Source: the human T2T-CHM13v2.0 reference genome, Homo sapiens. From it: a stretch of 64,000 nt of DNA. Shown in pieces: positions 23,681 to 64,000 of the stretch (positions within the stretch are counted from its first letter, which is position 1; the number at the start of each line of letters is the position of its first letter). The notes under the pieces are model-generated. The model was given only the letters and a program-made list of their open reading frames with translations, was not told the origin of the DNA and did not search any database. The DNA lies in assembly GCA_009914755.4 (NCBI GenBank), contig CP068257.2, positions 1,472,001-1,536,000 on the forward strand, written 5' to 3'. The position numbers and the translations under genes are program-made.

Positions 23681-23949
23681 AACTATAAATTATATACTGT
23701 ACATAAAATATGAAATTACATCAAATATATATTAGGTACATAAAATATGAAAGTACATCAAATATAGATTATATACTGTACATATAATATCAATGTACCC
23801 CAAATATATATTTTATACTCTACATGAAATATCAAAGTTCACAAACCATATATTATATACTGTACATAAAATATCAAAGTACCCAAGGTATATATTCTAT
23901 ACTATACAAAAAATATCAAAGTACCCAAAGCATGTATTATATACTGTAC

Positions 23950-29900: not shown

Positions 29901-31950
29901 GATTATATACTGTACATTAAATACCAAAGTACCCCAAATATATATTTTATACTCTACATGAAATATCAAAGTTCACAAACTATATATTATATACTGTACA
30001 TATAATATCAAAGTACCCAAGGTATATATTCTATACTGTACAAAAAATAACAAAGTACCAAAAGCATGTATAATATACTGTACATAAAATATGAAAGTAC
30101 ATCAAATATATATTTTATTCTGTACATAAAATATCAAAGTACACCAGATATATATTCTATAGTGTACATAAAATATCAAAGTACCCAAACTATACATTAT
30201 ATACTGTAAATAAAATATGAAATTACATCAAATATATTTTATATTAGGTACCTAAAATATGAAAGTACATCAAATATAGATTATATACTGTACATTAAAT
30301 ACCAAAGTACCCCAAATATATATTTTATACTGTACATGAAATATCAAAGTTCACAAACTATATATTATATACTGTACATAAATTATCAAAGTACCCAAGG
30401 TATATATTCTATACTGTACAAAAAATATCAAAGTACCCAAAGCATGTATTATATACTGTACATAAAATATGAAAGTACATCAAATATATATTTTATTCTG
30501 TACATAAAATATCAAAGTACACCAGATATATATTTTATAGTGTACATAAAATAACGAAGTACCCAAACTATAAATTATATACTGTACATAAAATATGAAA
30601 TTACATCAAATATATATTAGGTACATAAAATATGAAAGTACATCAAATATAGATTATATACTGTACATAAAATATCAATGTACCCCAAATATATATTTTA
30701 TACTGTACATGAAATATCAAAGTTCACAAACCATATATTGTATACTGTACATAAAATATCAAAGTACCCAAGGTATGTATTCTATACTGTACAAAAAATA
30801 TCAAAGTACCCAAAGCATGTATTATATAGTGTACATAAAATATGAAAGTACATCAAATATATATTTTATTCTGTACATAAAATACCAAAGAACACCAGAT
30901 ATATATTCTATAGTGTACATAAAATATCAAAGTACACAAACTATACATTATATACTGTACATAAAATATGAAATTACATCAAATATATATTATATTAGGT
31001 ACATAAAATATGAAAGTACATCAAATATAGATTATATACTGTACATAAAATATCAAAGTACCCCAAATATATATTATATACTCTACCTGAAATATCAAAG
31101 TTCACAAACTATATATTATATACTGTACATAAAATAAAGTACACAAAGTATATATTCTATACTGTACAAAAAATATCAAAGTACCCAAAGCATGTATTAT
31201 ATACTGTACATAAAATATGAAAGTACATCAAATATATATTTTATTCTGTACATAAAATATCAAAGTACACCAGATATATATTCTATAGTGTACATAAAAT
31301 ATGAAAGTACCCAAACTATACATTATATACTGTACATAAAATATGAAATTACATCAAATATATATTATATTAGGTACATAAAATATGGAAGTACATCAAA
31401 TATAGATTATATACTGTACATAAAATATCAAGGTACCCCAAATATATATTATATACTCTACATGAAATATCAAAGTTCACAAACTATATATTATATACTG
31501 TACATAAAATATCAAAGTACCCAAGGTATATATTCCATACTGCACAAAAAATTTCAAAGCACCCAAAGCATGTATTATATACTGTATATAAAATATGAAA
31601 GTACATCAAATATATATTTTATTCTGTACATAAAATATCAAAGTACACCAGATATATATTCTATAGTGTACATAAAATAACAAAGTACACAAACTATAAA
31701 TTATATACTGTACATAAAATATGAAATTACATCAAATATATATTAGGTACATAAAATATGAAAGTACATCAAATATAGATTATATACTGTACATAAAATA
31801 TCAAAGTACCCCAAATATATATTATATACTCTACATGAAATATCAAAGTTCACAAACTATATATTATATACTGTACATAAAATATCAAATTACCCAAGGT
31901 ATATATTCTATACTGTACAAAAAATATCAAAGTACCCAAAGCATGTATTA
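23950..31950. repeat. Super-unit U1 (~8.0 kb) of a large tandem super-repeat, near-identical to U3 at +13.64 kb
   Basis: Fourteen consecutive ORFs from 24575 to 32472 recur at +13639/13640 (38215 ... 46111) with 0-1 aa differences each. The rare variants tagtgtctataaaattacaaaatacac and ctgtaatgtacaaaaaa at ~24290-24440 recur at ~37930-38080. The fused 39-bp monomer 31124-31162 recurs at 44763-44801. Confidence 0.8.
31124..31162. repeat. Aberrant 39-bp monomer tgtacataaaataaagtacacaaagtatatattctatac (a 3-bp deletion plus substitutions in a G-type monomer); a lineage marker
   Basis: Read directly. The same variant is at 36754-36792 (+5630) and 44763-44801 (+13639). Confidence 0.85.
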
Positions 31951-40600: not shown

Positions 40601-43600
40601 TCAAAGTTCAGAAACCATATATTATATACTGTACATAAAATATCAAAGTACCCAAGGTATATATTCTATACTGTACAAAAAATATCAAAGTACCCAAAGC
40701 ATGTATTATATACTGTACATAAAATATGAAAGCACATCAAATATATATTTTATTCTGTACATAAAACATCAAAGTACACCAGATATATATTCTATACTGT
40801 ACAAAAAATATCAAAGTACCCAAAGCATGTATTATATACTGTACATAAAATATGAAATTACATCAAATATATATTATATTAGGTACATAAAATATGAAAG
40901 CACATCAAATATAGATTATATACTGTACATTAAATACCAAAGTAACACAAATATATATTTTATACTGTAAATCAAATATCAAAGTTCACAAACTATATAT
41001 TATATACTGTACATAAAATATCAAAGTACCCAAGGTATGTATTCTATACTGTATAAAAAATATCAAAGTACCCAAAGCATGTATTATATACTGTACATAA
41101 AATATGAAAGTACATCAAATATATATTTTATTCTGTACATAAAATATCAAAGTACACCAGATATATATTCTGTAGTGTACATAAAATATCAAAGTACCCA
41201 AACTATACATTATATACTGTACATAAAATATGAGATTACATCAAATATATATAATATTAGCTACATAAAATATGAAAGTACATCAGATATAGATTATATA
41301 CTGTACAAAAAATATCAAAGTACCCCAAATATATATTATATTCTCTACATGAAATATCAAAGTTCACAAACTATATATTATATACTGTACATAAAATATC
41401 AAAGTACCCATGGTATATATTCTATACTGTACAAAAAATATCAAAGTACCCAAAGCATGTATTATATACTGTATACAAAATATGAAAATACATTAAATAT
41501 ATATTTTATTCTGTACATAAAATATCAAAGTACACCAGATATGTATTCTATAGTGTACATAAAATAACAAAGTACACAAACTATAAATTATATACTGTAC
41601 GTAAAATATGAAATTACATCAAATATATATTAGGTACATAAAATATGAAAGTACATCAAATATAGATTATATACTGTACATATAATATCAATGTACCCCA
41701 AATATATATTTTATACTCTACATGAAATATCAAAGTTCACAAACCATACATTATATACTGTACATAAAATATCAAAGTACCCAAGGTATATATTCTATAC
41801 TGTACGAAAAATATCAAAGTACCCAAAGCATGTATTATATACTGTACATAAAATATGAAAGTACATCAAATATATATTTTATTCTGTACATAAAATATCA
41901 AAGTACACCAGATATATATTCTATAGTGTACATAAAATATCAAAGTACCCAAACTATACATTATATACTGTACATAAAATATGAAATTACATCAAATATA
42001 TATTAGGTACATAAAATATGAAAGTATATCAAATATAGATTATATACTGTACATATAATATCAATGTACCCCAAATATATATTTTATACTCTACATGAAA
42101 TATCAAAATTCACAAACTATATATTATATACTGTACATAAAATATCAAAGTACCCAAGTTATATATTCTATACTGTACAAAAAATATCAAAGTACCCAAA
42201 GCATGTTTTATATACTGTACATAAAATATGAAAGTACATCAAATATATATTTTATTCTGTAAATAAAATATCAAAGTACACCAGATATATATTCTATAGT
42301 GTACATAAAATATCAATGTACCCAAACTATACATTATATACTGTACATAAAATATGAAATTACATCAAATATATATTATATTAGGTACATAAAATATGAA
42401 AGCACATCAAATATAGATTATATACTGTACATTAAATGCCAAAGTACCCCAAATATATATTTTATACTGTACATCAAATATCAAAGTTCACAAACTATAT
42501 ATTATATACTGTACATAAAATATCAAAGTACCCAAGGTATATATTCTATACTGTACAAAAAATATCAAAGTATCCAAAGCATGTATTATATACTTTATAT
42601 AAAATATGAAAGTACGTCAAATATATATTTTATTCTGTACATAAAATATCAAAGTACACCAGATATATATTCTATAGTGTACATAAAATAACAAAGTACA
42701 CAAACTATAAATTATATACTGTACATAAAATATGAAATTACATCAAATATATATTAGGTACATAAAATATGAAAGTACATCAAATATAGATTATATACTG
42801 TACATATAATATCAATGTACCCCAAATATATATTTTATACTCTACATGAAATATCAAAGTTCACAAACCATATATTATATACTGTACATAAAATATCAAA
42901 GTACCCAAGGTATATATTCTATACTATACAAAAAGTATCAAAGTACCCAAAGCATGTATTATATACTGTACCTAAAATATGAAAGTACATCAAATATATA
43001 TTTTATTCTGTACATAAAATATCAAAGTACACCAGATATATATTCTATACTGTACATAAAATATCAAAGTACCCAAACTATATATTATATACTGTACATA
43101 AAATATGAAATTACATCAAATATATTTTATATTAGGTACATAAAATATGAAAGTACATCAAATATAGATTATATACTGTACATTAAATACCAAAGTACCC
43201 CAAATATATATTTTATACTGTACATAAAATATCAAAGTTCACAAACTATATATTATATACTGTACATATAATATCAAAGTACCCAGGGTATATATTCTAT
43301 ACTGTACAAAAAATAACAAAGTACCAAAAGCATGTATAATATACTGTACATAAAATTTGAAAGTACATCAAATATATATTTTATTCTGTACATAAAATAT
43401 CAAAGTACACCCGATATATATTCTATAGTGTACATAAAATATCAAAGTACCCAAACTATACATTATATACCGTACATAAAATATGAAATTACATCAAATA
43501 TATATTAGGTTCATAAAATATGAAAGTACATCAAATATAGATTATATACTGTACATTAAATACCAAAGTACCCCAAATATATATTTTATACTCTACATGA

Positions 43601-45600
43601 AATATCAAAGTTCACAAACTATATATTATATACTGTACATATAATATCAAAGTACCCAAGGTATATATTCTATACTGTACAAAAAATAACAAAGTACCAA
43701 AAGCATGTATAATATACTGTACATAAAATATGAAAGTACATCAAATATATATTTTATTCTGTACATAAAATATCAAAGTACACCAGATATATATTCTATA
43801 GTGTACATAAAATATCAAAGTACCCAAACTATACATTATATACTGTAAATAAAATATGAAATTACATCAAATATATTTTATATTAGGTACCTAAAATATG
43901 AAAGTACATCAAATATAGATTATATACTGTACATTAAATACCAAAGTACCCCAAATATATATTTTATACTGTACATGAAATATCAAAGTTCACAAACTAT
44001 ATATTATATACTGTACATAAATTATCAAAGTACCCAAGGTATATATTCTATACTGTACAAAAAATATCAAAGTACCCAAAGCATGTATTATATACTGTAC
44101 ATAAAATATGAAAGTACATCAAATATATATTTTATTCTGTACATAAAATATCAAAGTACACCAGATATATATTTTATAGTGTACATAAAATAACGAAGTA
44201 CCCAAACTATAAATTATATACTGTACATAAAATATGAAATTACATCAAATATATATTAGGTACATAAAATATGAAAGTACATCAAATATAGATTATATAC
44301 TGTACATAAAATATCAATGTACCCCAAATATATATTTTATACTGTACATGAAATATCAAAGTTCACAAACCATATATTGTATACTGTACATAAAATATCA
44401 AAGTACCCAAGGTATGTATTCTATACTGTACAAAAAATATCAAAGTACCCAAAGCATGTATTATATAGTGTACATAAAATATGAAAGTACATCAAATATA
44501 TATTTTATTCTGTACATAAAATATCAAAGAACACCAGATATATATTCTATAGTGTACATAAAATATCAAAGTACACAAACTATACATTATATACTGTACA
44601 TAAAATATGAAATTACATCAAATATATATTATATTAGGTACATAAAATATGAAAGTACATCAAATATAGATTATATACTGTACATAAAATATCAAAGTAC
44701 CCCAAATATATATTATATACTCTACCTGAAATATCAAAGTTCACAAACTATATATTATATACTGTACATAAAATAAAGTACACAAAGTATATATTCTATA
44801 CTGTACAAAAAATATCAAAGTACCCAAAGCATGTATTATATACTGTACATAAAATATGAAAGTACATCAAATATATATTTTATTCTGTACATAAAATATC
44901 AAAGTACACCAGATATATATTCTATAGTGTACATAAAATATGAAAGTACCCAAACTATACATTATATACTGTACATAAAATATGAAATTACATCAAATAT
45001 ATATTATATTAGGTACATAAAATATGGAAGTACATCAAATATAGATTATATACTGTACATAAAATATCAAGGTACCCCAAATATATATTATATACTCTAC
45101 ATGAAATATCAAAGTTCACAAACTATATATTATATACTGTACATAAAATATCAAAGTACCCAAGGTATATATTCCATACTGCACAAAAAATTTCAAAGCA
45201 CCCAAAGCATGTATTATATACTGTATATAAAATATGAAAGTACATCAAATATATATTTTATTCTGTACATAAAATATCAAAGTACACCAGATATATATTC
45301 TATAGTGTACATAAAATAACAAAGTACACAAACTATAAATTATATACTGTACATAAAATATGAAATTACATCAAATATATATTAGGTACATAAAATATGA
45401 AAGTACATCAAATATAGATTATATACTGTACATAAAATATCAAAGTACCCCAAATATATATTATATACTCTACATGAAATATCAAAGTTCACAAACTATA
45501 TATTATATACTGTACATAAAATATCAAATTACCCAAGGTATATATTCTATACTGTACAAAAAATATCAAAGTACCCAAAGCATGTATTATATACTGTACA
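37600..45600. repeat. Super-unit U3 (~8.0 kb), near-identical to U1. A partial U4 follows at 45600-46350.
   Basis: See U1. 45360..46070 = 31721..32431 (236 aa, identical) and 46111..46359 = 32472..32720. Similarity to U1/U2 ends at ~46.35 kb: the sequence from 46331 carries gaaagtacatc where the copy from 32691 carries gaaagcacatc. Confidence 0.8.
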
Positions 45601-46349
45601 TAAAATATGAAAGTACATCAAATATATATTTTATTCTGTACATAAATCATCAAAGTACACCAGATATATATTCTATAGTGTACATAAAATATAAAAGTAC
45701 CGAAACTATACATTATATACTGTACATAAAATATGAAATTACATCAAATATATATTATATTAGGTACATAATATATGAAAGTACATCAAATATAGATTAT
45801 ATACTGTACATAAAATATCAAAGTACCCGAAATATATATTATATACTCTACATGAAATATCAAAGTTCACAAACTATATATTATATACTGTACATAAAAT
45901 ATCAAAGTACCCAAGGTATATATTCTGTAATGTACAAAAAATATCAAAGTATCCAAAGCATGTATTATACACTGTATATAAAATATGAAAGTACATTAAA
46001 TATATATTTTATTCTGTACATAAAATATCAAAGTACACCAGATATATATTCTATAGTGTCTATAAAATAACAAAATACACAAACTATAAATTATATACTG
46101 TACATAAAATATGAAATTACATCAAATATATATTAGGTACATAAAATATGAAAGTACATCAAATATAGATTATATACTGTACATAAAATGTCAATGTACC
46201 CCAAATATATATTTTATACTCTACATGAAATATCAAAGTTCACAAACCATATATTATATACTGTACATAAAATATCAAGGTACCCAAGATATATTCTATA
46301 CTGTACAAAAAATATCAAAGTACCCAAAGCATGTATTATATACTGTACA

Positions 46350-49300
46350 TAAAATATGAAAGTACATCAAATATATATTTTATTCTGTACATAAAATATC
46401 AAAGTACACCAGATATATATTCTACAGTGTACATAAAATATCAAAGTACACAAACTATAAATTATATATTGTACATAAAATATGAAATTACATCAAATAT
46501 ATATTAGGTACATAAAATATGAAAGTATATCAAATATAGATTATATACTGTACATAAAATATCAAAGTACCCCAAATATATATTATATACTGTACATGAA
46601 ATATCAAAGTTCACAAACTATATATTATATACTGTACATAAAATATCAAAGTACCCAAGGTATATATTCTATACTGTACAAAAAATATCAAAGTACCCAA
46701 AGCATGTATTATATACTGTACATAAAATATGAAAGTACATCAAATATATATTTTATTCTGTACATAAAATATCAAAGTACACCAGATATATATTCTATAG
46801 TGTACATAAAATATCAAAGTACCCAAACTATACATTATATACTGTACATGAATATGAGATTACATCAAATATATATTATATTAGGTACATAAAATATGAA
46901 AGTACATCAGATATAGATTATATACTGTACATTAAATACCAAAGTACCGCAAATATATATTTTATACTGTACATCAAATATCAAAGTTCACAAACTATAT
47001 ATTATATACTGCACATAAAATATCAAAGTACCCAAGGTATATATTCTATACTGTAAAAAAATATCAAAGTACCCAAAGCATGTATTATATACTGTACATA
47101 AAATATGAAAGTACATCAAATATATATTTTCTTCTGTACATAAAATATCAAAGTACACCAAACATATATTCTATACTGTACCTAAAATATCAAAATACCC
47201 AAACTGTACATTATATACTGTACATAAAAGATGAAATTATATCAAAAATATATTATATTAGGTACATAAAATATGAAAGTACATCAAATATAGATTGTAA
47301 ACTTTACATAAAATATCAAAGTACCCCAAATATATATTATATACTCTACATGAAATATCAAAGTTCACAAACTATATATTATATACTGTTCATAAAATAT
47401 CAATGTACCCAAGGTATACATTCTATACTGTACAAAAAATATCAAAGTACCCAAAGCATGTATTACATACTGTACATAAAATATGAAAGTACATCAAATA
47501 CATATTTTATTCTGTACTTAAAATATCAAAGTACACCAAATATGTATTCTATAGTGTACATAAAATATCAAATTACCCAAACTATACATTACATACTGTA
47601 CATAAAATATGAAATTACATCAAATATCTATTATATTAGGTACGTAAAATATAAAAGTCCATCAAATATAGATTATATACTGTACATAATATACCTAAGT
47701 ACACCAAATATATATTTTATACTCTACATGAAATATCAAAGTTCACAAACCATATATTATATACTGTACATAAAATATCAAAGTACCCAAGGTATATATT
47801 CTATACTGTACAAAAAATATCAAAGTACCCAAAGCATGTATTATATACTGTACATAAAATATGAAAGTACATCAAATATATATTTTATTCTGTACATAAA
47901 ATATCAAAGTACACCAGATATATATTCTATAGTGTACATAAAATATCAAACTACCCAAACTATTTATTATATACTGTACATAAAATATGAAATTACATCA
48001 AATATGTATTATATTAGGTACATAAAATATGAAAGTACATCAAATATAGATTATATACTGTACATGAAATACCAAAGTACCCCAAATATATATTTTATAC
48101 GGTACATGAAATATCAAAGTTCACAAACTATATATTATATACTGTATATAAAATATCAAAGTACCCAAGGTATATATTCTATACTGTACAAAAAATATCA
48201 AAGTACCCAAAGCATGTATTATATACTGTACATAAAATATGAAAGTACATCAAATATATATTTTATTCTGTACAGAAAATATCAAAGTACACCAGATATA
48301 TATTCTATAGTGTACATAAAATATCAAAGTACCCAAACTATACAATATATACTGTACATAAAATATGAAATTACATCAAATTTATATTAGGTACATAAAA
48401 TATGAAAGTACGTCAAATATAGATTATATACTGTACATAAAATATCAAAGTACCCCAAATATATATTATATACTCTACATGAAATATCAAAGTTCACAAA
48501 CTATATATTATATACTGTACATAAAATATCCAAGTACCCAAGGTATATATTCTATACTGTACAAAAAATATCAACGTACCCAAAGCGTGTATTATATACT
48601 CTATATAAAATATGAAAGTACATCACATATATATTTTATTCTGTACATAAAATATCAAAGTACACCAGATATATATTCTATAGTGTACATAAAATTACAA
48701 AGTACAAAAACTGTAAATTATATGCTGTACATAAAATATGAAATTACATCAAATATATATTAGGTACATAAAATATGAAAGTACATCAAATATACATTAT
48801 ATACTGTACATAAAATATCAATGTACCCCAAATATATATTTTATACTCTACATGAAATATCAAAGTTCACAAACCATATATTATATACTGTACATAAAAT
48901 ATCAAAGTACCCAAGGTATATATTCTATACTGTACAAAAAATATCAAAGTACCCAAAGCATGTATTATATACTGTACATAAAATATGAAAGTACATCAAA
49001 TATATATTTTATTCTGTACATAAAATATCAAAGTACACCAGATATATATTCTATAGTGTACATAAAATATCAAAGTACCCAAACTATACATTATACACTG
49101 TACATAAAATATGAAATTACATCAAATATATATTATATTAGGTACATAAAATATGAAAGCACATCAAATATAGATTATATACTGTACATTAAATACCAAA
49201 GTACCCCAAATATATATTTTATACTGTACATCAAATATCAAAGTTCACAAACTATATATTATATACTGTACATAAAATATCAAAGTACCCATAGTATATA

Positions 49301-50395
49301 TTCTACAATGTACAAAAAATATCAAAGTACCCAAAGCAAGTATTATATACTGTATATTAAATATGAAAGTACATCACATATATATTTTATTCTGTACATA
49401 AAATATCAAAGTACACCAGATATATATTCTATAGTGTACATAAAATAACAAAGTTCAAAAATTATAAATTATATGCTGTACATAAAATATGAAATTACAT
49501 CAAATATATATTAGGTACATAAAATATGAAAGTACATCAAATATAGATTATATACTGTACATAAAATATCAATGTACCCCAAATATATATTTTATACTCT
49601 ACATGAAATATGAAAGTTCACAAACCATATATTATATGCTGTACATAAAATATCAAAGTACCCAAGGTATATATTCTATACTGTACAAAAAATATCAAAG
49701 TACCCAAAGCATGTATTATATACTGTACATAAAATATGAAAGTACATCAAATATATATTTTATTCTGTACATAAAATATCAAAGTACACCAGATATATAT
49801 TCTATAGTGTACATAAAATATCAACGTACCCAAACTCTACATTATATACTGTACATAAAATATGAAATTACATCAAATATATATTATATTAGGTACATAA
49901 AATATGAAAGCACATCAAATATAGATTATATACTGTACTTTAAATACCAAAGTACCCCAAATATATATTTTATACTGTACATCAAATATCAAAGTTCACA
50001 AACTATATATTATATACTGTACATAAAATATCAAAGTACCCATGGTATATATTCTATACTGTACAAAAAATATCAAAGTACCCAAAGCATGTATTATATA
50101 CTGTACATAAATTATGAAAGTACATCAAATATATATTTTATTCTGTACATAAAATATCAAAGTACACCAGATATATATTCTATAGTGTACATAAAATATC
50201 AAAGTACCCAAACTATACATTATATACTGTACATAAAATATGAAATTACATCAAATATATATTATATTAGGTACATAAAATATGAAAGTACATCAAATAT
50301 AGATTATATACTGTACATAAAATATCAAAGTGCCCCAAATATATATTATATACTGTACATGAAATATCAAAGTTCACAAACTATATATTATATAC
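46350..50395. repeat. Diverged transition zone between the homogenised U-block and the subfamily-II domain
   Basis: ORF 47080..48390 carries many private substitutions (YFLLYIK, KDEIISKIY, NIDCKLY, KYKSPSNID). There are no exact long-range ORF duplicates here. Confidence 0.6.
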
Positions 50396-53300
50396 TATAG
50401 ATAAAATATCAAAGTACCCAAGGTATATATTCTATACTGTACAAAAAATATCAAAGTACCCAAAGCATGTATTATATACTGTACATAAAATATGAAAGTA
50501 CATCAAATATATATTTTATTCTGTACATAAAATAAAAAAGTACACCAGATATATATTTTATAGTGTACATAAAATATGAAATTACCCAAACTATACATTA
50601 CATACTGTACATAAAATATGGAATTACATCAGATATATATTATATTAGGTACGTAAAATATGAAAGTACATCAAATATAGATTATATACCATACATAAAA
50701 TATAAAGGAACCCCAAATATATATGATATACTGTTCATGAAATATCAAAGTTCACAAACTATATATTATATACTGTAGATAAAATATCAAAGTACCCAAG
50801 GTATATATTCTATACTGTAAAAAAAAATCAAAGTACCCAAAGCATGTATTATATACTGTACATAAAATATGGAATTACATCAAATATATATTATATTAGG
50901 TACGTAAAATATGATAGTACAACAAATATAGATTATATACCATACATAAAATATAAAGGAACCCCAAATATATATGATATACTGTACATGAAATCTCAAA
51001 GTTCACAAACTATATATTATATACTGTAGATAAAATATCAAAGTACCCAAGGTATATATTCTATACTGTAAAAAAATATCAAAGTACCCAAAGCATGTAT
51101 TATATACTGTACATAAAATATGAAAGCACATCAAATATGTATTATATTAGGTACATAAAATATGAAAATACATAAAATATAGATGATATACTGTACATAA
51201 AATATCAAAGTAGCCCAAATATATATTATACTGTGTACATGAAATATCAAAATTTACGAAATATATATTATATAATGTACATAAAATATCAAAGTACCCA
51301 AAGCAAGTATTATATACTGTACATAAAAGATGAAATTACATCAAATATATATTTTATTCTGTACATAAAATATCAAAGTACACCAGATATATATTTTATA
51401 GTGTACATATAATATCAAGGTGCCCAAACTATAGATTATATACTGTACATAAAATATGAAATAACATCAAATATATATTATATTAGGTACGTAAAATATG
51501 AAAGTACATCAAATATAGATTATATACTGTACATAATATATAAAAGAACCCCAACAATATATTATATACTGTACATGAAATATCAAAATACACAAACTAT
51601 ATATTATATACTGTACATAAAATATCAAAGCACCCAAGGTATATATTCTATACTGTACAAAAAATATCAAAGTACCCAAAGCATGTATTATATACTGTAC
51701 ATAAAATATGAAAGTACATCAAATATATATTTTATTCTGTACATAAAATATCAAAGTACACCAGATATATATTCTATAGTGTACATAAAATATCAAAGTA
51801 CCCAAACTATACATTACATACTGTACATAAAATATGGAATTACATCAAATATATATTATATTAGGTACGTAAAATATGAAAGTACATCAAATATAGATTA
51901 TATACCGTACATAAAATATAAAGGAACCCCAAATATATAGGATATACTGTACATGAAATATCAAAGTTCACAAACTGTATATTATATACTGTAGATAAAA
52001 TATCAAAGTACCCAAGGTATATATTCTATACTGTATAAAAAATATCAAAGTACCCAAAGCATGTATTATATACTGTACATAAAAGATGAAAGTACATCAA
52101 ATATATATTTTATTCTGTACATAAAATAACAAAGTACACCAGATATATATTTTATAGTGTACATAAAATATGAAATTACCCAAACTATACATTACATACT
52201 GTGCATAAAATATGGAATTACATCAAATATATATTATATTAGGTACGTAAAATATGAAAGTACATCAAATATAGATTATATACCATACATAAAATATAAA
52301 GGAACCCCAAATATATATGATATACTGTACATGAAATATCAAAGTACCCAAGGTATATATTCTATAATGTAAAAAAAATATCAAAGCACACAAAGCATGT
52401 ATTATATACTGTACATAAAATATGAAAGCACATCAAATATATATTATATTAGGTACATAAAATATGAAAGTACATAAAATATAGATGATATACTGTACAT
52501 AAAAAATCAAAGGAGCCCAAATATATATTATACAGTGTACATGAAATACCAAAATTTACAAAATATATATTATATAATGTACATAAAATATCAAAGTACC
52601 CAAAGCAAGTATTATATACTGTACATAAAAGATGAAAGTACATCAAATATATATTTTATTCTGTACATAAAATATCAAAGTACACCAGATATATATTTCA
52701 TAGTGTACATAAAATATCAAGGTACCCAAACTATACATTATATACTGTACATAAAATATGAAATTACATCAAATATATATTATATTAGGTACATAAAATA
52801 TGAAAGTACATCAAATATAGATTATATACTGTACATAAAATATCAAAGTGCCCCAAATATATATTATATACTGTACATGAAATATCAAAGTTCACAAACT
52901 ATATATTATATACTATAGATAAAATATCAAAGTACCCAAGGTATATATTCTATACTGTACAAAAAATATCAAAGTACCCAAAGCATGTATTATATACTGT
53001 ACATAAAATATGAAAGTACATCAAATATATATTTTATTCTGTACATAAAATAACAAAGTACACCAGATATATATTTTATAGTGTACATAAAATATGAAAT
53101 TACCCAAACTATACATTACATACTGTACATAAAATATGGAATTACATCAGATATATATTATATTAGGTACGTAAAATATGAAAGTACATCAAATATAGAT
53201 TATATACCATACATAAAATATAAAGGAACCCCAAATATATATGATATACTGTTCATGAAATATCAAAGTTCACAAACTATATATTATATACTGTAGATAA

Positions 53301-55400
53301 AATATCAAAGTACCCAAGGTATATATTCTATACTGTAAAAAAAAATCAAAGTACCCAAAGCATGTATTATATACTGTACATAAAATATGGAATTACATCA
53401 AATATATATTATATTAGGTACGTAAAATATGATAGTACAACAAATATAGATTATATACCATACATAAAATATAAAGGAACCCCAAATATATATGATATAC
53501 TGTACATGAAATCTCAAAGTTCACAAACTATATATTATATACTGTAGATAAAATATCAAAGTACCCAAGGTATATATTCTATACTGTAAAAAAAATATCA
53601 AAGCACCCAAAGCATGTATTATATACTGTACATAAAATATGAAAGCACATCAAATATGTATTATATTAGGTACATAAAATATGAAAGTACATAAAATATA
53701 GATGATATACTGTACATAAAATATCAAAGTAGCCCAAATATATATTATACAGTGTACATGAAATATCAAAATTTACGAAATATATATTATATAATGTACA
53801 TAAAATATCAAAGTACCCAAAGCAAGTATTATATACTGTACATAAAAGATGAAATTACATCAAATATATATTTTATTCTGTACATAAAATATCAAAGTAC
53901 ACCAGATATATATTTTATAGTGTACATATAATATCAAGGTGCCCAAACTATAGATTATATACTGTACATAAAATATGAAATAACATCAAATATATATTAT
54001 ATTAGGTACGTAAAATATGAAAGTACATCAAATATAGATTATATACTGTACATAACATATAAAAGAACCCCAACAATATATTATATACTGTACATGAAAT
54101 ATCAAAATACACAAACTATATATTATATACTGTACATAAAATATCAAAGCACCCAAGGTATATATTCTATACTGTACAAAAAATATCAAAGTACCCAAAG
54201 CATGTATTATATACTGTACATAAAATATGAAAGTACATCAAATATATATTTTATTCTGTATATAAAATAACAAAGTACACCAGATATATATTTTATAGTG
54301 TACATAAAATATCAAAGTACCCAAACTATACATTACATACTGTACATAAAATATGGAATTACATCAAATATATATTATATTAGGTACGTAAAATATGAAA
54401 GTACATCAAATATAGATTATATACCGTACATAAAATATAAAGGAACCCCAAATATATAGGATATACTGTACATGAAATATCAAAGTTCACAAACTGTATA
54501 TTATATACTGTAGATAAAATATCAAAGTACCCAAGGTATATATTCTATACTGTATAAAAAATATCAAAGTACCCAAAGCATGTATTATATACTGTACATA
54601 AAAGATGAAAGTACATCAAATATATATTTTATTCTGTACATAAAATAACAAAGTACACCAGATATATATTTTATAGTGTACATAAAATATGAAATTACCC
54701 AAACTATACATTACATACTGTGCATAAAATATGGAATTACATCAAATATATATTATATTAGGTACGTAAAATATGAAAGTACATCAAATATAGATTATAT
54801 ACCATACATAAAATATAAAGGAACCCCAAATATATATGATATACTGTACATGAAATATCAAAGTACCCAAGGTATATATTCTATAATGTAAAAAAAATAT
54901 CAAAGCACACAAAGCATGTATTATATACTGTACATAAAATATGAAAGCACATCAAATATATATTATATTAGGTACATAAAATATGAAAGTACATAAAATA
55001 TAGATGATATACTGTACATAAAAAATCAAAGGAGCCCAAATATATATTATACAGTGTACATGAAATACCAAAATTTACAAAATATATATTATATAATGTA
55101 CATAAAATATCAAAGTACCCAAAGCAAGTATTATATACTGTACATAAAAGATGAAAGTACATCAAATATATATTTTATTCTGTACATAAAATATCAAAGT
55201 ACACCAGATATATATTTCATAGTGTACATAAAATATCAAGGTACCCAAACTATACATTATATACTGTACATAAAATATGAAATTACATCAAATATATATT
55301 ATATTAGGTACGTAAAATATGAAAGTACATCAAATATAGATTATATACTGTACATAATATATAAAAGAACCCCAACTATATATTATATACTGTACATGAA
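50396..55400. repeat. Two tandem copies of a ~2518/2519-bp super-repeat in subfamily II
   Basis: ORFs 50563 = 53081, 50844 = 53362 (offset 2518) and 52157 = 54676, 52449(-) = 54968(-), 52535 <-> 55054 (offset 2519). 51571 tgtacatgaaatatcaaaatacacaaac matches 54090. The copies diverge at ~52.9/55.4 kb. Confidence 0.8.
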
Positions 55401-58400
55401 ATATCAAAACACACAAACTATATATTATATACTGTACATAAAATATCAAAGTACCCAAGGTATATATCCTATACTGTACAAAAAATATCAAAGTACCCAA
55501 AGCATGTATTATATACTGTACATAAAATATGAAAGCACATCAAATATATATTATATTAGGTACATAAAATATGAAAGTAAATAAAATATAGATGATATAC
55601 TTTACATAAAATATCAAAGTAGCCCAAATATATATTATACAGTGTACATGAAATATCAAAATTTACAAAATATATATTATATAATGTACATAAAATATCA
55701 AAGTACCCAAAGCATGTATTATATACTGTACATAAAATATGAAAGTACATCAAATATATATTTTATTCTGTACATAAAATATCAAAGTACACCAGATATA
55801 TATTTTATAGTGTACATAAAATATCAAGGTACCCAAACTATACATTATATACTGTACATAAAATATGAAATTACATCAAATATATATTATATTAGGTACG
55901 TAAAATATGAAAGTACATCAAATATAGACTCTATACTGTACATAATATATAAAAGAACCCCAAATATATATTATATACTGTACATGAAGTATCAAAATAC
56001 ACAAACTATATATTATATACTGTACATAAAATATCAAAGTACCCAAGGTATATATTCTATACTGTACAAAAAATATCAAAGTACCCAAAGCATGTATTAT
56101 ATACTGTACATAAAATATGAAAGTACATCAAATATATATTATATTAGATACGTAAAATATGAAAGTACATCAAATATAGATTATATACCATACATAAAAT
56201 ATAAAGGAACCCCAAATATATATGATATACTGTACATGAAATATCAAAGTTCACAAACTATATATTATATACTGTAGATAAAATATCAAAGTACCCAAGG
56301 TATATATTCTATACTGTAAAAAAAAATCAAAGTACCCAAAGCATGTATTATATACTGTACATAAAATATGAAGACACATCAAATATATATTATATTAGGT
56401 ACATAAAATATGAAAGTACATAAAATATAGATGATATACTGTACATAAAATATCAAAGTAGCCCAAATATATATTATACAGTGTACATGAAATATCAAAA
56501 TTTACAAAACATATATTATATAATGTACATAAAATATCAAAGTACCCAAAGCAAGTATTATATACTGTACATAAAAGATGAAAGTACATCAAATATATAT
56601 TTTATTCTGTACATAAAATATCAAAGTACACCAGATATATATTTTATAGTGTACATAAAATATCAAGGTACCCAAACTATACATTATATACTGTACATAA
56701 AATATGAAATTACATCAAATATATATTATATTAGGTACGTAAAATATGAAAGTACATCAAATATAGATTATATACTGTACATAATATATAAAAGAACCCC
56801 AAATATATATTATATACTGTACATGAAGTATCAAAATACACAAACTATATATTATATACTGTATATAAAATATCAAAGTACCCAAGGTATATATTCTATA
56901 CTGTACAAAAAATATCAAAGTACCCAAATCATGTATTATATACTGTATATAAAATATGAAAGTACATCAAATATATATTTTATTCTGTACATAAAATAAC
57001 AAAGTACAACAGATATATATTTTATAGTGTACATAAAATATCAAAGTACCCAAACTATACATTACATACTGTACATAAAATATGGAATTACATCAAATAT
57101 ATATTATATTAGGTATGTAAAATATGAAAGTACATCAAATATAGTTTATATACCATACATAAAATATAAAGGAACCCAAATATATATGATATACTGTACA
57201 TGAAATATCAAAGTTCACAAACTATATATTATATACTGTAGATAAAATATCAAAGTACCCAAGGTATATATTCTATACTGTAAAAAAAATATCAAAGCAC
57301 CCAAAGCATGTATTATATACTGTACATAAAATATGAAAGCACATCAAATATATATTATATTAGGTACATAAAATATGAAAGTACATAAAATATAGATGAT
57401 ATACTGTACATAAAATATCAAAGGAGCCCAAATATATATTATACAGTGTACATGAAATATCAAAATTTACAAAATATATATTATATAATGTACATAAAAT
57501 ATCAAAGTACCCAAAGCAAGTATTATCTACTGTACATAAAAGATGAAAGTACATCAAATATATATTTTATTCTGTACATAAAATATCAAAGTACACCAGA
57601 TATATATTTTATAGTGTACATAAAATATCAAGGTACCCAAACTATACATTATATACTGTACATAAAATATGAAATTACATCAAATATATATTATATTAGG
57701 TACGTAAAATATGAAAGTACATCAAATATAGATTATATACTGTACATAATATATAAAAGAACCCCAACTATATATTATATACTGTACATAAAATATCAAA
57801 ATACACAAACTATATATTATATACTCTACATAAAATATCAAAGTACCCAAGGTATATATCCTATACTGTACAAAAAATATCAAAGTACCCAAAGCATGTA
57901 TTATATACTGTACATAAAATATGAAAGCACATCAAATATATATTATATTAGGTACATAAAATATGAAAGTACATAAAATATAGATGATATACTGTACATA
58001 AAATATCAAAGTAGCCCAAATATATATTATACAGTGTACATGAAATATCAAAATTTACAAAATATATATTATATAATGTACATAAAATATCAAATTACCC
58101 AAAGCATGTATTATATACTGTACATAAAATATGAAAGTACATCAAGTATATATTTTATTCTGTACATAAAATATCAAAGTACACCAGATATATATTTTAT
58201 AGTGTACATAAAATATCAAGGTACCCAAACTATACATTATATACTGTACATAAAATATGAAATTACATCAAATATATATTATATTAGGTACGTAAAATAT
58301 GAAAGTACATCAAATATAGACTATATACTGTACATAATATATAAAAGAACCCCAAATATATATTATATACTGTACATGATGTATCAAAATACACAAACTA

Positions 58401-59800
58401 TATATTATATACTGTACATAAAATATCAAAGTACCCAAGGTATATATTCTATACTGTACAAAAAATATCAAAGTACCCAAAGCATGTATTATATACTGTA
58501 CATAAAATATGAAAGTACATCAAATATATATTATATTAGGTACGTAAAATATGAAAGTACATCAAATATAGATTATATACCATACATAAAATATAAAGGA
58601 ACCCCAAATATATATGATATACTGTACATGAAATATCAAAGTTCACAAACTATATATTATATACTGTAGATAAAATATCAAAGTACCCAAGGTATATATT
58701 CTATACTGTAAAAAAAAATCAAAGTACCCAAAGCATGTATTATATACTGTACATAAAATATGAAGGCACATCAAATATATATTATATTAGGTACATAAAA
58801 TATGAAAGTACATAAAATATAGATGATATACTGTACATAAAATATCAAAGTAGCCCAAATATATATTATACAGTGTACATGAAATATCAAAATTTACAAA
58901 ACATATATTATATAATGTACATAAAATATCAAAGTACCCAAAGCAAGTATTATATACTGTACATAAAAGATGAAAGTACATCAAATATATATTTTATTCT
59001 GTACATAAAATATCAAAGTACACCAGATATATATTTTATATTGTACATAAAATATCAAGGTACCCAAACTATACATTATATACTGTACATAAAATATGAA
59101 ATTACATCAAATATATATTATATTAGGTACGTAAAATATGAAAGTACATCAAATATAGATTATATACTGTACATAATATATAAAATAACCCCAAATATAT
59201 ATTATATACTGTACATGAAGTATCAAAATACACAAACTATATATTATATACTGTAGATAAAATATCAAAGTACCCAAGGTATATATTCTATACTGTACAA
59301 AAAATATCAAAGTACCCAAAGCATGTATTATATACTGTATATAAAATATGAAAGTACATCAAATATATATTTTATTCTGTACATAAAATAACAAAGTATA
59401 CCAGATATATATTTTATAGTGTACATAAAATATCAAAGTACCCAAACTATACATTACATACTGTACATAAAATATGGAATTACATCAAATATATATTATA
59501 TTAGGTACGTAAAATATGAAAGTACATCAAATATAGATTATATACCATACATAAAATCTAAAGGAACCCCAAATATATATGATATACTGTACATGAAATT
59601 TCAAAGTTCACAAACTATATATTATATACTGTAGATAAAATATCAAAGTACCCAAGGTATATATTCTATACTGTAAAAAAAATATCAAAGTACCCAAAGC
59701 ATGTATTATATAATGTACATAAAATATGAAAGCACATCAAATATATATTATATTAGGTACATAAAATATGAAAGTACATAAAATATAGATGATATACTGT
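55000..59800. repeat. Two tandem copies of a 2392-bp super-repeat, itself built from 1427-bp and 965-bp blocks
   Basis: 55054 <-> 57446 (176 aa, 2 differences), 55642 <-> 58034, 56395(-) = 58787(-), 56481 <-> 58873. The MYMKYQNLQNIYYIMY... ORF recurs at 55054, 56481, 57446, 58873, 59839, 61183 and 62610, giving spacings of 1427, 965, 1427, 966, 1344 and 1427. Confidence 0.75.
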
Positions 59801-62800
59801 ACATAAAATATCAAAGTAGCCCAAATATATATTATACAGTGTACATGAAATATCAAAATTTACGAAATATATATTATATAATGTACATAAAATATGAAAG
59901 TACACAAAGCAAGTATTATATACTGTACATAAAAGATGAAATTACATCAAATATATATTTTATTCTGTACATAAAATATCAAAGTACACCAGATATATAT
60001 TTTATAGTGTACATAAAATATCAAGGTACCCAAACTATACATTATATACTGTACATAAAATATGAAATTACATCAAATATATATTATATTAGGTACGTAA
60101 AATATGAAAGTACATCAAATATAGATTATATACTGTACATAATATATAAAAGAACCCCAACTATATATTATATACTGTACATGAAATATCAAAATACACA
60201 AACTATATATTATATACTGTACATAAAATATCAAAGCACCCAAGGTATATATTCTATACTATACAAAAAATATCAAAGTACCCAAAGCATGTATTATATA
60301 CTGTACATAAAATATGAAAGTACATCAAATATATATTTTATTCTGTATATAAAATAACAAAGTACACCAGATATATATTTTATAGTGTACATAAAATATC
60401 AAAGTACCCAAACTATACATTACATACTGTACATAAAATATGGAATTACATCAAATATATATTATATTAGGTACGTAAAATATGAAAGTACATCAAATAT
60501 AGATTATATACCATACATAAAATATAAAGGAACCCCAAATATATAGGATATACTGTACATGAAATATCAAAGTTCACAAACTATATATTATATACTGTAG
60601 ATAAAATATCAAAGTACCCAAGGTATATATTCTATACTGTATAAAAAATATCAAAGTACCCAAAGCATGTATTATATACTGTACATAAAAGATGAAAGTA
60701 CATCAAATATATATTTTATTCTGTACATAAAATAACAAAGTACACCAGATATATATTTTATAGTGTACATAAAATATGAAATTACCCAAACTATACATTA
60801 CATACTGTACATAAAATATGGAATTACATCAAATATATATTATATTAGGTACGTAAAATATGAAAGTACATCTAATATAGATTATATACCATACATAAAA
60901 TATAAAGGAACCCCAAATATATATGATATACTGTACATGAAATATCAAAGTTCACAAACTATATATTGTATACTGTACATAAAATATCAAAGTACCCAAG
61001 GTATATATTCTATAATTTAAAAAAAATATCAAAGCACCCAAAGCATGTATTATATACCGTACATAAAATATGAAAGCACATCAAATATATATTATATTAG
61101 GTACATAAAATATGAAAGTACATAAAATATAGATGATATACTGTACATAAAATATCAAAGGAGCCCAAATATATATTATACAGTGTACATGAAATATCAA
61201 AATTTACAAAATATGTATTATATAATGTACATAAAATATCAAAGTACCCAAAGCAAGTATTATATACTGTACATAAAAGATGAAAGTACATCAAATATAT
61301 ATTTTATTCTGTACATAAAATATCAAAGTACACCAGATATATATTTTATAGTGTACATAAAATATCAAGGTACCCAAACTATACATTATATACTGTACAT
61401 AAAATATGAAATTACATCAAATATATATTATATTAGGTACGTAAAATATGAAAGTACATCAAATATAGATTATATACTGTACATAATATATAAAAGAACC
61501 CCAACTATATATTATATACTGTACATGAAATATCAAAATACACAAATTATATATTATATACTGTACATAAAATATCAAAGTACCCAAGGTATATATCCTA
61601 TACTGTACAAAAAATATCAAAGTACCCAAAGCATGTATTATATACTGTACATAAAATATGAAAGCACATGAAATATATATTATATTAGGTACATAAAATA
61701 TGAAAGTACATAAAATATAGATGATATACTGTACATAAAATATCAAAGTAGCCCAAATATATATTATACAGTGTACATGAAATATCAAAATTTACAAAAT
61801 ATATATTATATAATGTACATAAAATATCAAAGTACCCAAAGCATGTATTATATACTGTACATAAAATATGAAAGTACATCAAATATATATTTTATTCTGT
61901 ACATAAAATATCAAAGTACACCAGATATATATTTTATAGTGTACATAAAATATCAAGGTACCCAAACTATACATTATATACTATACATAAAATATGAAAT
62001 TACATCAAATATATATTATATTAGGTACGTAAAATATGAAAGTACATCAAATATAGACTATATACTGTACATAATATATAAAAGAACCCCAAATATATAT
62101 TATATACTGTACATGAAGTATCAAAATACACAAACTATATATTATATACTGTACATAAAATATCAAAGTACCCAAGGTATATATTCTATACTGTACAAAA
62201 AATATCAAAGTACCCAAAGCATGTATTATATACTGTACATAAAATATGAAAGTACATCAAATATATATTATATTAGGTACGTAAAATATGAAAGTACATC
62301 AAATATAGATTATATACCATACATAAAATATAAAGGAACCCCAAATATATATGATATACTGTACATGAAATATCAAAGTTCACAAACTATATATTATATA
62401 CTGTAGATAAAATATCAAAGTACCCAAGGTATATATTCTATACTGTAAAAAAAAATCAAAGTACCCAAAGCATGTATTATATACTGTACATAAAATATGA
62501 AGGCACATCAAATATATATTATATTAGGTACATAAAATATGAAAGTACATAAAATATAGATGATATACTGTACATAAAATATCAAAGTAGCCCAAATATA
62601 TATTATACAGTGTACATGAAATATCAAAATTTACAAAACATATATTATATAATGTACATAAAATATCAAAGTACCCAAAGCAAGTATTATATACTGTACA
62701 TAAAAGATGAAAGTACATCAAATATATATTTTATTCTGTACATAAAATATCAAAGTACACCAGATATATATTTTATAGTGTACATAAAATATCAAGGTAC

Positions 62801-63450
62801 CCAAACTATACATTATATACTGTACATAAAATATGAAATTACATCAAATATATATTATATTAGGTACGTAAAATATGAAAGTACATCAAATATAGATTAT
62901 ATACTGTACATAATATATAAAAGAACCCCAAATATATATTATATACTGTACATGAAGTATCAAAATACACAAACTATATATTATATACTGTAGATAAAAT
63001 ATCAAAGTACCCAAGGTATATATTCTATACTGTACAAAAAATATCAAAGTACCCAAAGCATGTATTATATACTGTATATAAAATATGAAAGTACATCAAA
63101 TATATATTTTATTCTGTACATAAAATAACAAAGTACAACAGATATATATTTTATAGTGTACATAAAATATCAAAGTACCCAAACTATACATTACATACTG
63201 TACATAAAATATGGAATTACATCAAATATATATTATATTAGGTACATAAAATATGAAAGTACATCAAATATAGATTATATACCATACATAAAATCTAAAG
63301 GAACCCCAAATATATATGATATACTGTACATGAAATTTCAAAGTTCACAAACTATATATTATATACTGTAGATAAAATATCAAAGTACCCAAGGTATATA
63401 TTCTATACTGTAAAAAAAATATCAAAGTACCCACAGCATGTATTATATAC
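58000..63450. repeat. Paired blocks at offset 3737 bp (58.0-59.7 kb and 61.75-63.45 kb)
   Basis: 58034 <-> 61771 (211 aa, 3 differences), 58787(-) = 62524(-), 58873 <-> 62610 (2 differences), 59419 <-> 63156 (1 difference). 55642 <-> 61771 at offset 6129 = 2392+3737 with 1 difference. Confidence 0.75.
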
Positions 63451-64000
63451 TGTACATAAAATATGAAAGTACATCAAATATATATTTTATTCTGTACATA
63501 AAATAACAAAGTACACCAGATATATATTTTATAGTGTACATAAAATATGAAATTACCCAAACTATACATTACATACTGTACATAAAATATGGAATTACAT
63601 CTAATATATATTATATTAGGTACGTAAAATATGAAAGTACATCAAATATAGATTATATACCATACATAAAATATAAAGGAAACCCAAATATATATGATAT
63701 ACTGTACATGAAATATCAAAGTTCACAAACTATATATTATATACTGTAGATAAAATATCAAAGTACCCAAGGTATATATTCTATACTGTAAAAAAAATAT
63801 CAAAGTACCCAAAGCATGTATTATATACTGTACATAAAATATGAAAGCACATCAAATATATATTATATTAGGTACATAAAATATGAAAGTACATAAAATA
63901 TAAATGATATACTGTACATAAAATATCAAAGTAGCCCAAATATATATTATACAGTGTACATGAAATATCAAAATTTACAAAATATATATTATATAATGTA

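What the first reader, a model, noticed from the sequence alone, without database searches (positions are those of the whole stretch)
50396..64000. Subfamily-II domain is built from 588/839/965/1427-bp blocks (monomer multiples, not 9-mer multiples)
The minus-strand 65-aa ORF recurs at 52449, 54968, 55556, 56395, 57360, 58787, 61097, 61685 and 62524. This gives spacings of 2519, 588, 839, 965, 1427, 2310, 588 and 839. The plus-strand MYMKYQNLQ... ORF gives 1427/965 alternation. The larger periods 2392 (=1427+965), 2519, 3737 and 6129 (=2392+3737) follow from these. These values correspond to about 14, 20, 23 and 34 monomers. In this domain, unequal exchange is therefore registering on the 42-bp monomer rather than on a fixed HOR. 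That is a different evolutionary regime from the first 50 kb.
Basis: seen in the sequence. Interest (0 to 1): 0.5.

Follow-up and report, generated by a model that had tools for sequence, protein, structure and literature searches.

The report
Variant repeat domain in satellite 1A
The last 13.6 kb of this window is an ordinary stretch of the 42-bp AT-rich satellite HSat1A, in which the usual 9-monomer repeat unit is mixed with three shortened versions of itself and then copied in 2.4-2.5 kb blocks; this is a local variant of known satellite behaviour, not a new mode of evolution.

Summary
The whole window is one uninterrupted 42-bp satellite. It is 78% AT, has a 17+25 bp substructure and a 378-bp 9-mer higher-order repeat (HOR), which fits the published description of human satellite 1A (HSat1A/SAR).

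All nine ORF coordinates and their spacings are correct. The true blocks are therefore 588, 839, 965/966, 1217, 1302 and 1344 bp (14, 20, 23, 29, 31 and 32 monomers).

Monomer typing shows that the 9-mer is not abandoned. All 44 units from 50479 on stay in 9-mer phase:
- 23 full 9-mers
- 13 five-mers
- 5 six-mers
- 2 eight-mers
- 1 unit cut by the window end

Only three junction types break the 1-to-9 order, and each sits at a hybrid monomer (1/4, 8/9 or 7/8).

These units were then amplified as super-units: 2519 bp x2 at 99.4% identity, and 2392 bp x3 at 98.8-99.3%. 378 bp remains the strongest period above the monomer, but it is diluted.

The first 50 kb also has near-identical periods that are not 9-mer multiples (30, 61 and 327 monomers). 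The difference between domains is therefore one of degree. The finding is ordinary and of low interest.

The parts
1..50100 (+). Context: HSat1A-type 42-bp satellite in canonical 9-mer HOR form. Units are 378 bp (ADHACGFEB / ADHACKFEB) and 373 bp (ADJICGFEB / ADHICGFEB, with a 38-bp monomer). There are a few truncated units.
   Evidence: TRF finds one array at 3..64000 with period 42. 126 of 142 parsed units are 9-mers, with bp lengths mostly 373 (62 units) and 378 (47 units). K-mer intervals of 373+378 make up 38% at k=16.
50101..50478 (+). Junction unit (W9). Monomers 1-6 are of the first-domain type and monomer 8 is of the Y type. The domain boundary lies between about 50348 and 50400.
   Evidence: Diagnostic-column table. 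The G at 50400 creates the TAG that ends the 303-aa ORF at 49489..50400.
50101..52618 (+). 2519-bp super-unit, copy 1 (60 monomers): W9 Y9 Y6 Z5 X9 Y9 Y8 Z5.
   Evidence: Unit parse. 99.44% identical to copy 2.
52619..55137 (+). 2519-bp super-unit, copy 2. Its first unit (52619-52996) is X9-like in monomers 1-3, first-domain-like in monomers 5-6 and Y-like in monomer 8. This is the duplication junction, and it is in HOR phase.
54928..57319 (+). 2392-bp super-unit, copy 1 (57 monomers): [Z5 X9][Z5 X9 Y6][Z5 X9 Y9], i.e. 588+839+965 bp.
   Evidence: Unit parse. 98.87% identical to copy 2 and 99.0% to copy 3.
57320..59712 (+). 2392/2393-bp super-unit, copy 2.
59713..61056 (+). 1344-bp block (32 monomers): Z5 X9 Y9 Y9. 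It lies between super-unit copies 2 and 3.
   Evidence: Its first 966 bp are 97.6-97.8% identical to the third block of the super-units. The independent contig L002 matches 60431-61492 at 97.7%.
61057..63449 (+). 2393-bp super-unit, copy 3.
   Evidence: Lags 6129 and 3737 give 99.2-99.3% identity.
63450..64000 (+). A further Y9 unit and the start of a Z5 unit. The array runs off the window.
52409..52450 (+). Example of the 1/4 hybrid monomer (first monomer of Z5 and Y6 units). Column 20 is G as in HOR position 1, and column 38 is A as in position 4. The junction removes three monomers. It occurs 19 times.
   Evidence: Positions 1 and 4 are the most similar pair in the HOR, with 2 differences in 42.
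52577..52618 (+). Example of the 8/9 hybrid monomer (last monomer of Z5). Its 5' part is like position 8 and its 3' part is like position 9. The junction removes one monomer. It occurs 13 times.
52325..52366 (+). Example of the 7/8 hybrid monomer in the 8-mer Y8 (ADHACLET). The junction removes one monomer. It occurs twice.

Best explanation
This is non-coding tandem satellite DNA of the HSat1A (SAR, classical satellite I) type. The last 13.6 kb is a local variant domain of the same 9-monomer HOR that fills the first 50 kb.

Shown here:
- The domain is a string of HOR units, all in phase. There are two diverged full 9-mers: X9 (variant monomers at positions 6 and 7) and Y9 (variant monomer at position 6).
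- There are three truncated derivatives, each with a hybrid monomer at its deletion junction: Y6 (positions 2-4 lost, 1/4 hybrid), Z5 (the same loss plus an 8/9 hybrid) and Y8 (7/8 hybrid).
- Z5 is followed by X9 in 12 of 13 complete cases, giving a 588-bp 14-mer core. The exception at 52409 is followed by the junction unit W9.
- The core is followed by no Y unit, Y6, Y9, Y9Y9 or Y9Y8. This gives the 588, 839, 965, 1344 and 1302 bp spacings.
- These blocks are in turn copied as a 2519-bp super-unit (x2) and a 2392-bp super-unit (x3) at about 99% identity.

Inferred:
- The three deletions arose by out-of-register homologous exchange between similar monomers within the HOR. The mechanism could be unequal crossing-over, gene conversion or replication-template switching.
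- They happened once or a few times each.
- Later amplification happened by exchange between units aligned in HOR phase. Lengths are therefore monomer multiples only because the copied segments contain truncated units.

The ORFs are by-products of a 42-bp (14-codon) repeat and are not genes.
For: - One 42-bp array spans 3..64000, with 17- and 25-bp sub-periods. GC is 21-22% throughout.
- The literature describes HSat1A as a 42-bp (17+25) repeat, the most AT-rich in the human genome, with a predominant 378-bp 9-mer and also a 751-bp period. The window shows 378, 373 and 751.
- Monomer classes and the unit parse.
- Hybrid monomers at diagnostic columns.
- Only three non-canonical junction types among 330 transitions.
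- The commonest junction joins the two most similar monomers of the HOR.
- Super-unit identities are 99.44% and 98.87-99.29%. Copies of the 14-mer are 96.6-98.5% identical across different positions, and X9 against Y9 is 94.3%.
- The duplication junction at 52619-52996 preserves HOR phase.
- An independent metagenome contig (L002) carries the same Y9-Y9-Z5-X9 order, with both hybrid junctions, at 97.7% identity.
- 4 of 13 marker ORF copies have stop codons, and there is no Pfam match.
Against: - No human or ape reference was available, so identification as HSat1A rests on matching published descriptors, not on an alignment to the Dfam SAR consensus or to clone pTRI-6.
- The molecular mechanism (crossing-over, conversion or replication-based) cannot be read from one sequence.
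- Whether the 1/4 hybrid in Z5 and in Y6 is one event or two is unresolved.
- There are only 2-3 copies of each super-unit and the array runs off the window, so the larger-scale grammar is under-sampled.
- Only one junction of a large duplication could be resolved for phase.
Confidence: 0.85

Rival explanations
1. In this domain unequal exchange now registers on any 42-bp monomer, with no HOR constraint. This would be a different evolutionary regime from the first 50 kb.
For: - Block lengths of 14, 20, 23, 29, 31 and 32 monomers are not multiples of nine.
- Non-canonical transitions are 10.3% here, against 1.8% in the first 50 kb.
- The 378-bp share of k-mer intervals falls from about 38% to 15%.
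Against: - The 34 non-canonical junctions are only three types, each copied many times.
- All units keep the 1-to-9 phase, and 23 of 44 are intact 9-mers.
- 378 bp remains the top period above the monomer.
- The first 50 kb has at least five junction types of its own, and near-identical duplications of 30, 61 and 327 monomers.
- Founder junction types per kb differ by only about two-fold between domains, on very small numbers.
Confidence: 0.1
2. The irregular block structure is an assembly artefact, such as mis-joins or collapses in a highly repetitive array.
For: Satellite arrays are prone to mis-assembly (general knowledge). No reads were available to check this.
Against: - Super-unit copies differ by 0.6-1.2% with copy-specific variants, so they can be resolved.
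- Junctions are clean hybrid monomers that keep the 42-bp frame.
- The independent contig L002 reproduces the Y9-Y9-Z5-X9 order and both hybrid junctions.
Confidence: 0.03
3. The recurring ORFs (65 aa on the minus strand, up to 211 aa on the plus strand) are real repeated protein-coding genes.
For: Long ORFs recur with conserved translations.
Against: - The translations are simply the 14-codon reading of the 42-bp repeat.
- 4 of 13 copies of the minus-strand marker carry stops.
- ORFs overlap on both strands throughout the array.
- There is no Pfam match at E<=1.
- DNA-level identity explains the conservation.
Confidence: 0.01

Closest known systems
Human satellite 1A (HSat1A; RepeatMasker/Dfam SAR; classical satellite I, clone pTRI-6)
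   Same: The monomer is 42 bp, made of 17-bp and 25-bp sub-repeats. AT content is about 78%. A 378-bp 9-mer HOR predominates and there is a 751-bp period (literature).
   Different: The periods reported for HSat1A arrays are 378, 751, 3013, 3474 and 6330 bp (PMC9909926), plus a 2.97-kb HOR (PMC8125562). The 588/839/965-bp blocks and the 2392/2519-bp super-units found here are not in those lists. Species and chromosome were not determined.
Structural-variant HORs with hybrid monomers in alpha satellite (as described in Altemose et al., 'Complete genomic and epigenetic maps of human centromeres')
   Same: A canonical HOR and its deletion variants sit in one array. The deletions are out of register with monomer boundaries and leave hybrid monomers (the 'a/bc' type). 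The variants are then propagated in tandem.
   Different: The monomer family differs (42 bp rather than 171 bp). Here truncated units make up about half of all units and are tied into a fixed 14-mer core. No centromere function is implied.
Nested tandem repeats / locally varying periodicity within HSat arrays (NTRprism analysis, Altemose et al.)
   Same: Periodicity changes abruptly along one array, with young multi-kb repeat units expanding locally (text; here).
   Different: Only 2-3 copies of each super-unit are visible in this window. The extent beyond 64000 is unknown.
HSat1B (formerly HSATI; AT-rich sequence plus Alu fragments, mostly on chrY)
   Same: It is AT-rich and has a multi-kb unit size of similar order.
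   Different: There is no Alu-like or GC-rich insert. The 42-bp array is uninterrupted and GC is flat at 0.21-0.22. This window is not a member.

Membership tests
HSat1A / SAR satellite | 42-bp tandem monomer | tested here: met
   TRF finds period 42 with 1532 copies over 3..64000. Cyclic alignment gives 1373 of 1534 monomers at exactly 42 bp.
HSat1A / SAR satellite | Monomer built from a 17-bp A unit and a 25-bp B unit | tested here: met
   TRF reports period-17 and period-25 sub-arrays throughout. The A-unit 17-mer recalled from memory (ACATAAAATATGAAAGT) occurs 211 times; the recalled sequence itself is a lead, not a verified reference.
HSat1A / SAR satellite | Extremely AT-rich (reported GC about 23%) | tested here: met
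   GC is 0.212-0.223 in every 2-kb bin.
HSat1A / SAR satellite | Predominant 378-bp 9-mer higher-order repeat (also 751 bp) | tested here: met
.
HSat1A / SAR satellite | Sequence identity to the Dfam SAR consensus (DF0001062) or clone pTRI-6 (L01057) | not testable with these tools
   No human reference, Dfam or GenBank primate sequence was available. A full-text search for the 17-mers found no paper.
HSat1A / SAR satellite | Pericentromeric or acrocentric short-arm location in a human (or ape) chromosome | not testable with these tools
   The window is satellite from end to end and has no flanking unique sequence.
Structural-variant HOR with hybrid monomers | Deletion of a whole number of monomers relative to a canonical HOR present in the same array | tested here: met
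   Units of 6, 5 and 8 monomers occur beside 9-mers, all in phase.
Structural-variant HOR with hybrid monomers | Hybrid monomer at the junction, with 5' diagnostic bases of one HOR position and 3' diagnostic bases of another | tested here: met
   The 1/4, 8/9 and 7/8 hybrids are seen in the consensus comparison. The 1/4 call rests on only two diagnostic columns.
Nested / super higher-order repeat | Copies of the long unit are more alike than the shorter units inside it | tested here: met
   Super-unit copies are 98.9-99.4% identical. Internal 14-mers are 96.6-98.5% identical, and X9 against Y9 is 94.3%.
Nested / super higher-order repeat | Many tandem copies forming a homogeneous array | tested here: inconclusive
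   Only 2 copies of the 2519-bp unit and 3 of the 2392-bp unit are seen (one separated by a 1344-bp block). The array leaves the window at 64000.
HSat1B | Composite unit containing Alu fragments | tested here: not met
   The 42-bp array is uninterrupted and GC is flat.
Protein-coding repeat gene | Intact ORF in all copies and a recognisable protein family | tested here: not met
   4 of 13 copies have stops and there is no Pfam hit.

The most novel reading that the evidence does not exclude
The 50.4-64 kb domain could be the edge of a young, expanding layer of HSat1A with an emergent HOR of its own: a 588-bp 14-mer core inside a 57-monomer, 2392-bp super-HOR. It carries a fixed new CpG in every position-5 monomer. 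If it extends for hundreds of kb, it would be an undescribed chromosome- or haplotype-specific HSat1A subfamily. Such a subfamily could serve as a marker and might differ in methylation from the neighbouring canonical array.
Probability: 0.15. Interest if true: 0.3.

Novelty: new member of a known kind. Interest (0 to 1): 0.15.

Why it matters
It matters little beyond satellite cataloguing. It gives a worked, base-level example of how an HSat1A array changes periodicity. A few exchanges between similar monomers inside the HOR create truncated units, and ordinary in-phase amplification then spreads them. This produces periods that look unrelated to the HOR length. It also shows that ORF spacing used as a marker under-samples repeats when some copies carry stop codons. 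If the domain proves extensive, its diagnostic monomers (classes L, M, N, O and the hybrid junctions) could serve as array- or haplotype-specific markers.

Tried and rejected
- Self-BLAST of 49-64 kb. With an identity filter it returned nothing usable. Without one, every alignment ran through the whole array at about 85%. I replaced it with lag-specific sliding identity and global alignments.
- Full-text paper search for the 17-mer A unit and its variants: no hits. The consensus could therefore not be verified from the literature.
- Scan of genome contigs with a pattern specific to the L and N monomers: 0 hits.
- Scans of viral contigs with the same pattern and with a general HSat1A pattern: 0 hits.
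- Metagenome contig L001 is only an 82% divergent, HOR-less relative and says nothing about this domain.
- Tracing the origin of the terminal Y9 unit (63450-64000) among the other Y9 units gave no clear best donor; the top three were 97.6-98.0%.
- The coding hypothesis was rejected.
- HSat1B was rejected because there is no Alu insert.
Full report
**What the window is**

Tandem Repeats Finder reports a single array from 3 to 64000. It has period 42, 1532 copies and 79% matches, with recurring period-17 and period-25 sub-arrays. GC is 0.21-0.22 in every 2-kb bin.

A cyclic alignment to the consensus cuts the window into 1534 monomers, of which 1373 are exactly 42 bp. Clustering of the monomers gives nine main classes that recur in the order A-D-H-A-C-G-F-E-B. 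This is a 378-bp 9-mer higher-order repeat (HOR). A 373-bp variant contains a 38-bp monomer.

These features match the published description of human satellite 1A (HSat1A, formerly SAR, classical satellite I):
- a 42-bp monomer made of a 17-bp A unit and a 25-bp B unit
- a predominant 378-bp 9-mer, with further periods of 751, 3013, 3474 and 6330 bp

I could not align the window to a reference consensus, so the identification rests on these descriptors. A 17-mer that I recalled from memory as the A unit occurs 211 times. I treat that only as a lead.

**Checking the observation**

But the ORF is only a marker for a DNA segment, and the marker list is incomplete.

Translating the same offset in every Z5 unit shows 13 complete copies. 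Those at 51147, 53666, 57948 and 59753 each carry one in-frame stop. A 14th copy is cut by the window end.

The true spacings are 1302, 1217, 1302, 588, 839, 965, 588, 839, 966, 1344, 588 and 839. One more spacing of 1344 is inferred from the unit starts at 62484 and 63828. So 1427, 2310 and 2519 are sums of smaller blocks, and "34 monomers" is not a block size.

The large periods are real. Segments at lags 2519, 2392, 3737 and 6129 are 98.8-99.4% identical.

The boundary near 50396 is also right:
- In the unit at 50101-50478, monomers 1-6 carry bases of the first-domain type.
- The first base of the second-domain type is G at 50400.
- That G creates the TAG that ends the 303-aa ORF at 49489..50400.
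- Monomer classes L, M, N and O are confined to 50689 onward, and I, J and K to 49933 and below.

**What the domain is made of**

I cut the monomer string after HOR position 9. This gives 44 units from 50479 to the end:

| Unit size | Count | Types |
|---|---|---|
| 9-mer | 23 | X9 = ADHACNOEB, Y9 = ADHACLFEB, one W9 = ADHACGFEB |
| 5-mer | 13 | Z5 = ACGMB |
| 6-mer | 5 | Y6 = ACLFEB |
| 8-mer | 2 | Y8 = ADHACLET |
| partial | 1 | cut by the window end |

The junction unit W9 at 50101-50478, described above, lies just before these 44.

Every unit begins at HOR position 1 and runs in order towards position 9. When each monomer is assigned to one of the nine HOR positions, 296 of 330 successive steps are canonical. 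The 34 exceptions fall into three junction types:
- **1 to 5 (19 times):** the junction monomer has the position-1 base at column 20 and the position-4 base at column 38.
- **7 to 9 (13 times):** the junction monomer is like position 8 in its 5' part and like position 9 in its 3' part.
- **6 to 8 (2 times):** a 7/8 hybrid.

The hybrids are shown. Positions 1 and 4 are the most similar pair in the HOR, with 2 differences in 42. This fits homology-driven misalignment for the commonest junction.

Z5 is followed by X9 in 12 of 13 complete cases, making a 588-bp 14-mer core. The Z5 at 52409 is followed by W9 instead. The core is followed by different Y-unit tails, which produce the observed spacings:

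| Tail after the core | Monomers | Spacing (bp) |
|---|---|---|
| none | 14 | 588 |
| Y6 | 20 | 839 |
| Y9 | 23 | 965/966 |
| Y9 Y9 | 32 | 1344 |
| Y9 Y8 | 31 | 1302 |

The remaining 1217-bp (29-monomer) spacing is Z5 W9 Y9 Y6.

**Higher levels**

- A 2519-bp super-unit of 60 monomers occurs twice, at 50101-52618 and 52619-55137, with 99.44% identity.
- A 2392/2393-bp super-unit of 57 monomers (14+20+23) occurs three times, at 54928-57319, 57320-59712 and 61057-63449, with 98.87-99.29% identity.
- A 1344-bp block lies between copies 2 and 3.
- Copies of the 14-mer core at the same position in different super-units are 98.8-99.7% identical. Copies at different positions are 96.6-98.5% identical.
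- X9 against Y9 is 94.3%. That is about as far apart as either is from the first-domain units.
- The first unit of the second 2519-bp copy (52619-52996) is X9-like in monomers 1-3, first-domain-like in monomers 5-6 and Y-like in monomer 8. This duplication junction therefore joined two units in the same HOR phase.

A k-mer interval spectrum (an NTRprism-style analysis) gives the following at k=16:

| Interval (bp) | First 50 kb | 50101-64000 |
|---|---|---|
| 373 + 378 | 38% | 378 alone: 15.3% |
| 588 | - | 11.0% |
| 251/252 | - | 8.8% |
| 839 | - | 7.1% |
| 965/966 | - | 7.0% |
| 1344 | - | 2.7% |
| 1302 | - | 2.5% |

Base-match autocorrelation at lag 378 is 0.74 in the second domain. It is 0.63-0.79 in equal-sized pieces of the first domain.

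But 378 bp is still the strongest period above the monomer.

**Is it a different regime?**

The first 50 kb also has truncated units and non-canonical junctions. It shows 22 non-canonical steps out of 1200, in at least five types. These include 3-mers (AQB), a 4-mer (ACEB), 7-mers (ADHACEB) and an 8-mer.

It also has near-identical duplications:
- lag 13639 (327 monomers), 99.86% over 8.6 kb
- lag 5630 (135 monomers), a period that is a 9-mer multiple
- lag 2530 (61 monomers)
- lag 1261 (30 monomers)

Counted as founder junction types per kb, the two domains differ by about two-fold, on very small numbers. The real difference is that in the last 13.6 kb the truncated units became part of the segment that was amplified.

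**Independent support**

A pattern specific to the L and N monomers found two metagenome contigs.
- L002 (QZLL01023588.1, 1060 bp) aligns over its full length to 60431-61492 at 97.7%. It contains the Y9-Y9-Z5-X9 order with both the 1/4 and 8/9 hybrid junctions. This argues against an assembly artefact and shows that the arrangement exists in another data set.
- L001 is an 82% divergent relative without a HOR.
- No hits were found in the bacterial/archaeal genome collection or in viral contigs.

**Mechanism**

Shown: the unit grammar, the hybrid junctions, the hierarchy of identities, and one duplication junction that preserves HOR phase.

Inferred: out-of-register homologous exchange between similar monomers produced the three deletions, and in-phase unequal exchange (or an equivalent replication-based process) amplified the resulting blocks. 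The type of exchange cannot be told from one sequence.

The ORFs are not genes. They are the 14-codon reading of the repeat. They overlap on both strands, they are interrupted in 4 of 13 copies, and they match no Pfam family.

**Comparison with what is known**

Deletion-variant HORs with hybrid monomers are described for alpha satellite. Locally varying periodicity ("expanding hyper-locally") is described for HSat arrays. This domain is the HSat1A counterpart of both. The particular periods (588, 839, 965, 2392, 2519 bp) are not among those listed for HSat1A. I therefore file it as a new member of a known kind, of low interest.

Noticed in passing
window 50101-64000 versus 1-50100: CpG density is 2.37 per kb in the second domain against 0.96 per kb in the first. 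26 of the 33 CpGs come from one fixed A-to-G change in HOR-position-5 monomers (TAGGTACGTAAAAT). This could change methylation potential.
   Followed up: partly
window about 50000: GC skew steps from about -0.29 to about -0.18 and stays there. C falls from 14.0% to 12.8% and G rises from 7.7% to 8.8%. This reflects the variant monomers L, M and N and the position-5 G.
   Followed up: partly
window 24151-32761 and 37790-46400: An 8.6-kb segment in the first domain is duplicated at lag 13639 with 99.86% identity (327 monomers, not a multiple of 9). Further duplications lie at lags 5630, 8009, 2530 and 1261.
   Followed up: partly
window 1-50100, e.g. 19084, 21469, 25860, 39500: The first domain contains 3-monomer units (class string AQB, 126 bp, 5 copies), 7-mers (ADHACEB), a 4-mer (ACEB) and 9-mers with a position-9-like monomer at position 3 (ADBACKFEB).
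   Followed up: partly
window 843-49476: A 38-bp monomer (class I, 64 copies) at HOR position 4, together with a 41-bp position-5 monomer, makes the 373-bp HOR variant. Alternation of 373-bp and 378-bp units gives the 751-bp period. This matches a period reported for HSat1A.
   Followed up: partly
window 49489-50400 (+): A 303-aa ORF, an artefact of the in-frame 42-bp repeat, ends at a TAG created by the first base diagnostic of the second domain (G at 50400).
   Followed up: yes
L001 1-3646 (OIHV01000332.1): A metagenome contig made of 42-bp satellite is about 82% identical to the window. It consists mostly of consensus-like monomers and has no 9-mer HOR. It is a divergent, monomeric HSat1A-like array of unknown source.
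   Followed up: partly
L002 1-1060 (QZLL01023588.1): A contig in a metagenome assembly is 97.7% identical to window 60431-61492. It is presumably host DNA carried into a metagenome.
   Followed up: partly
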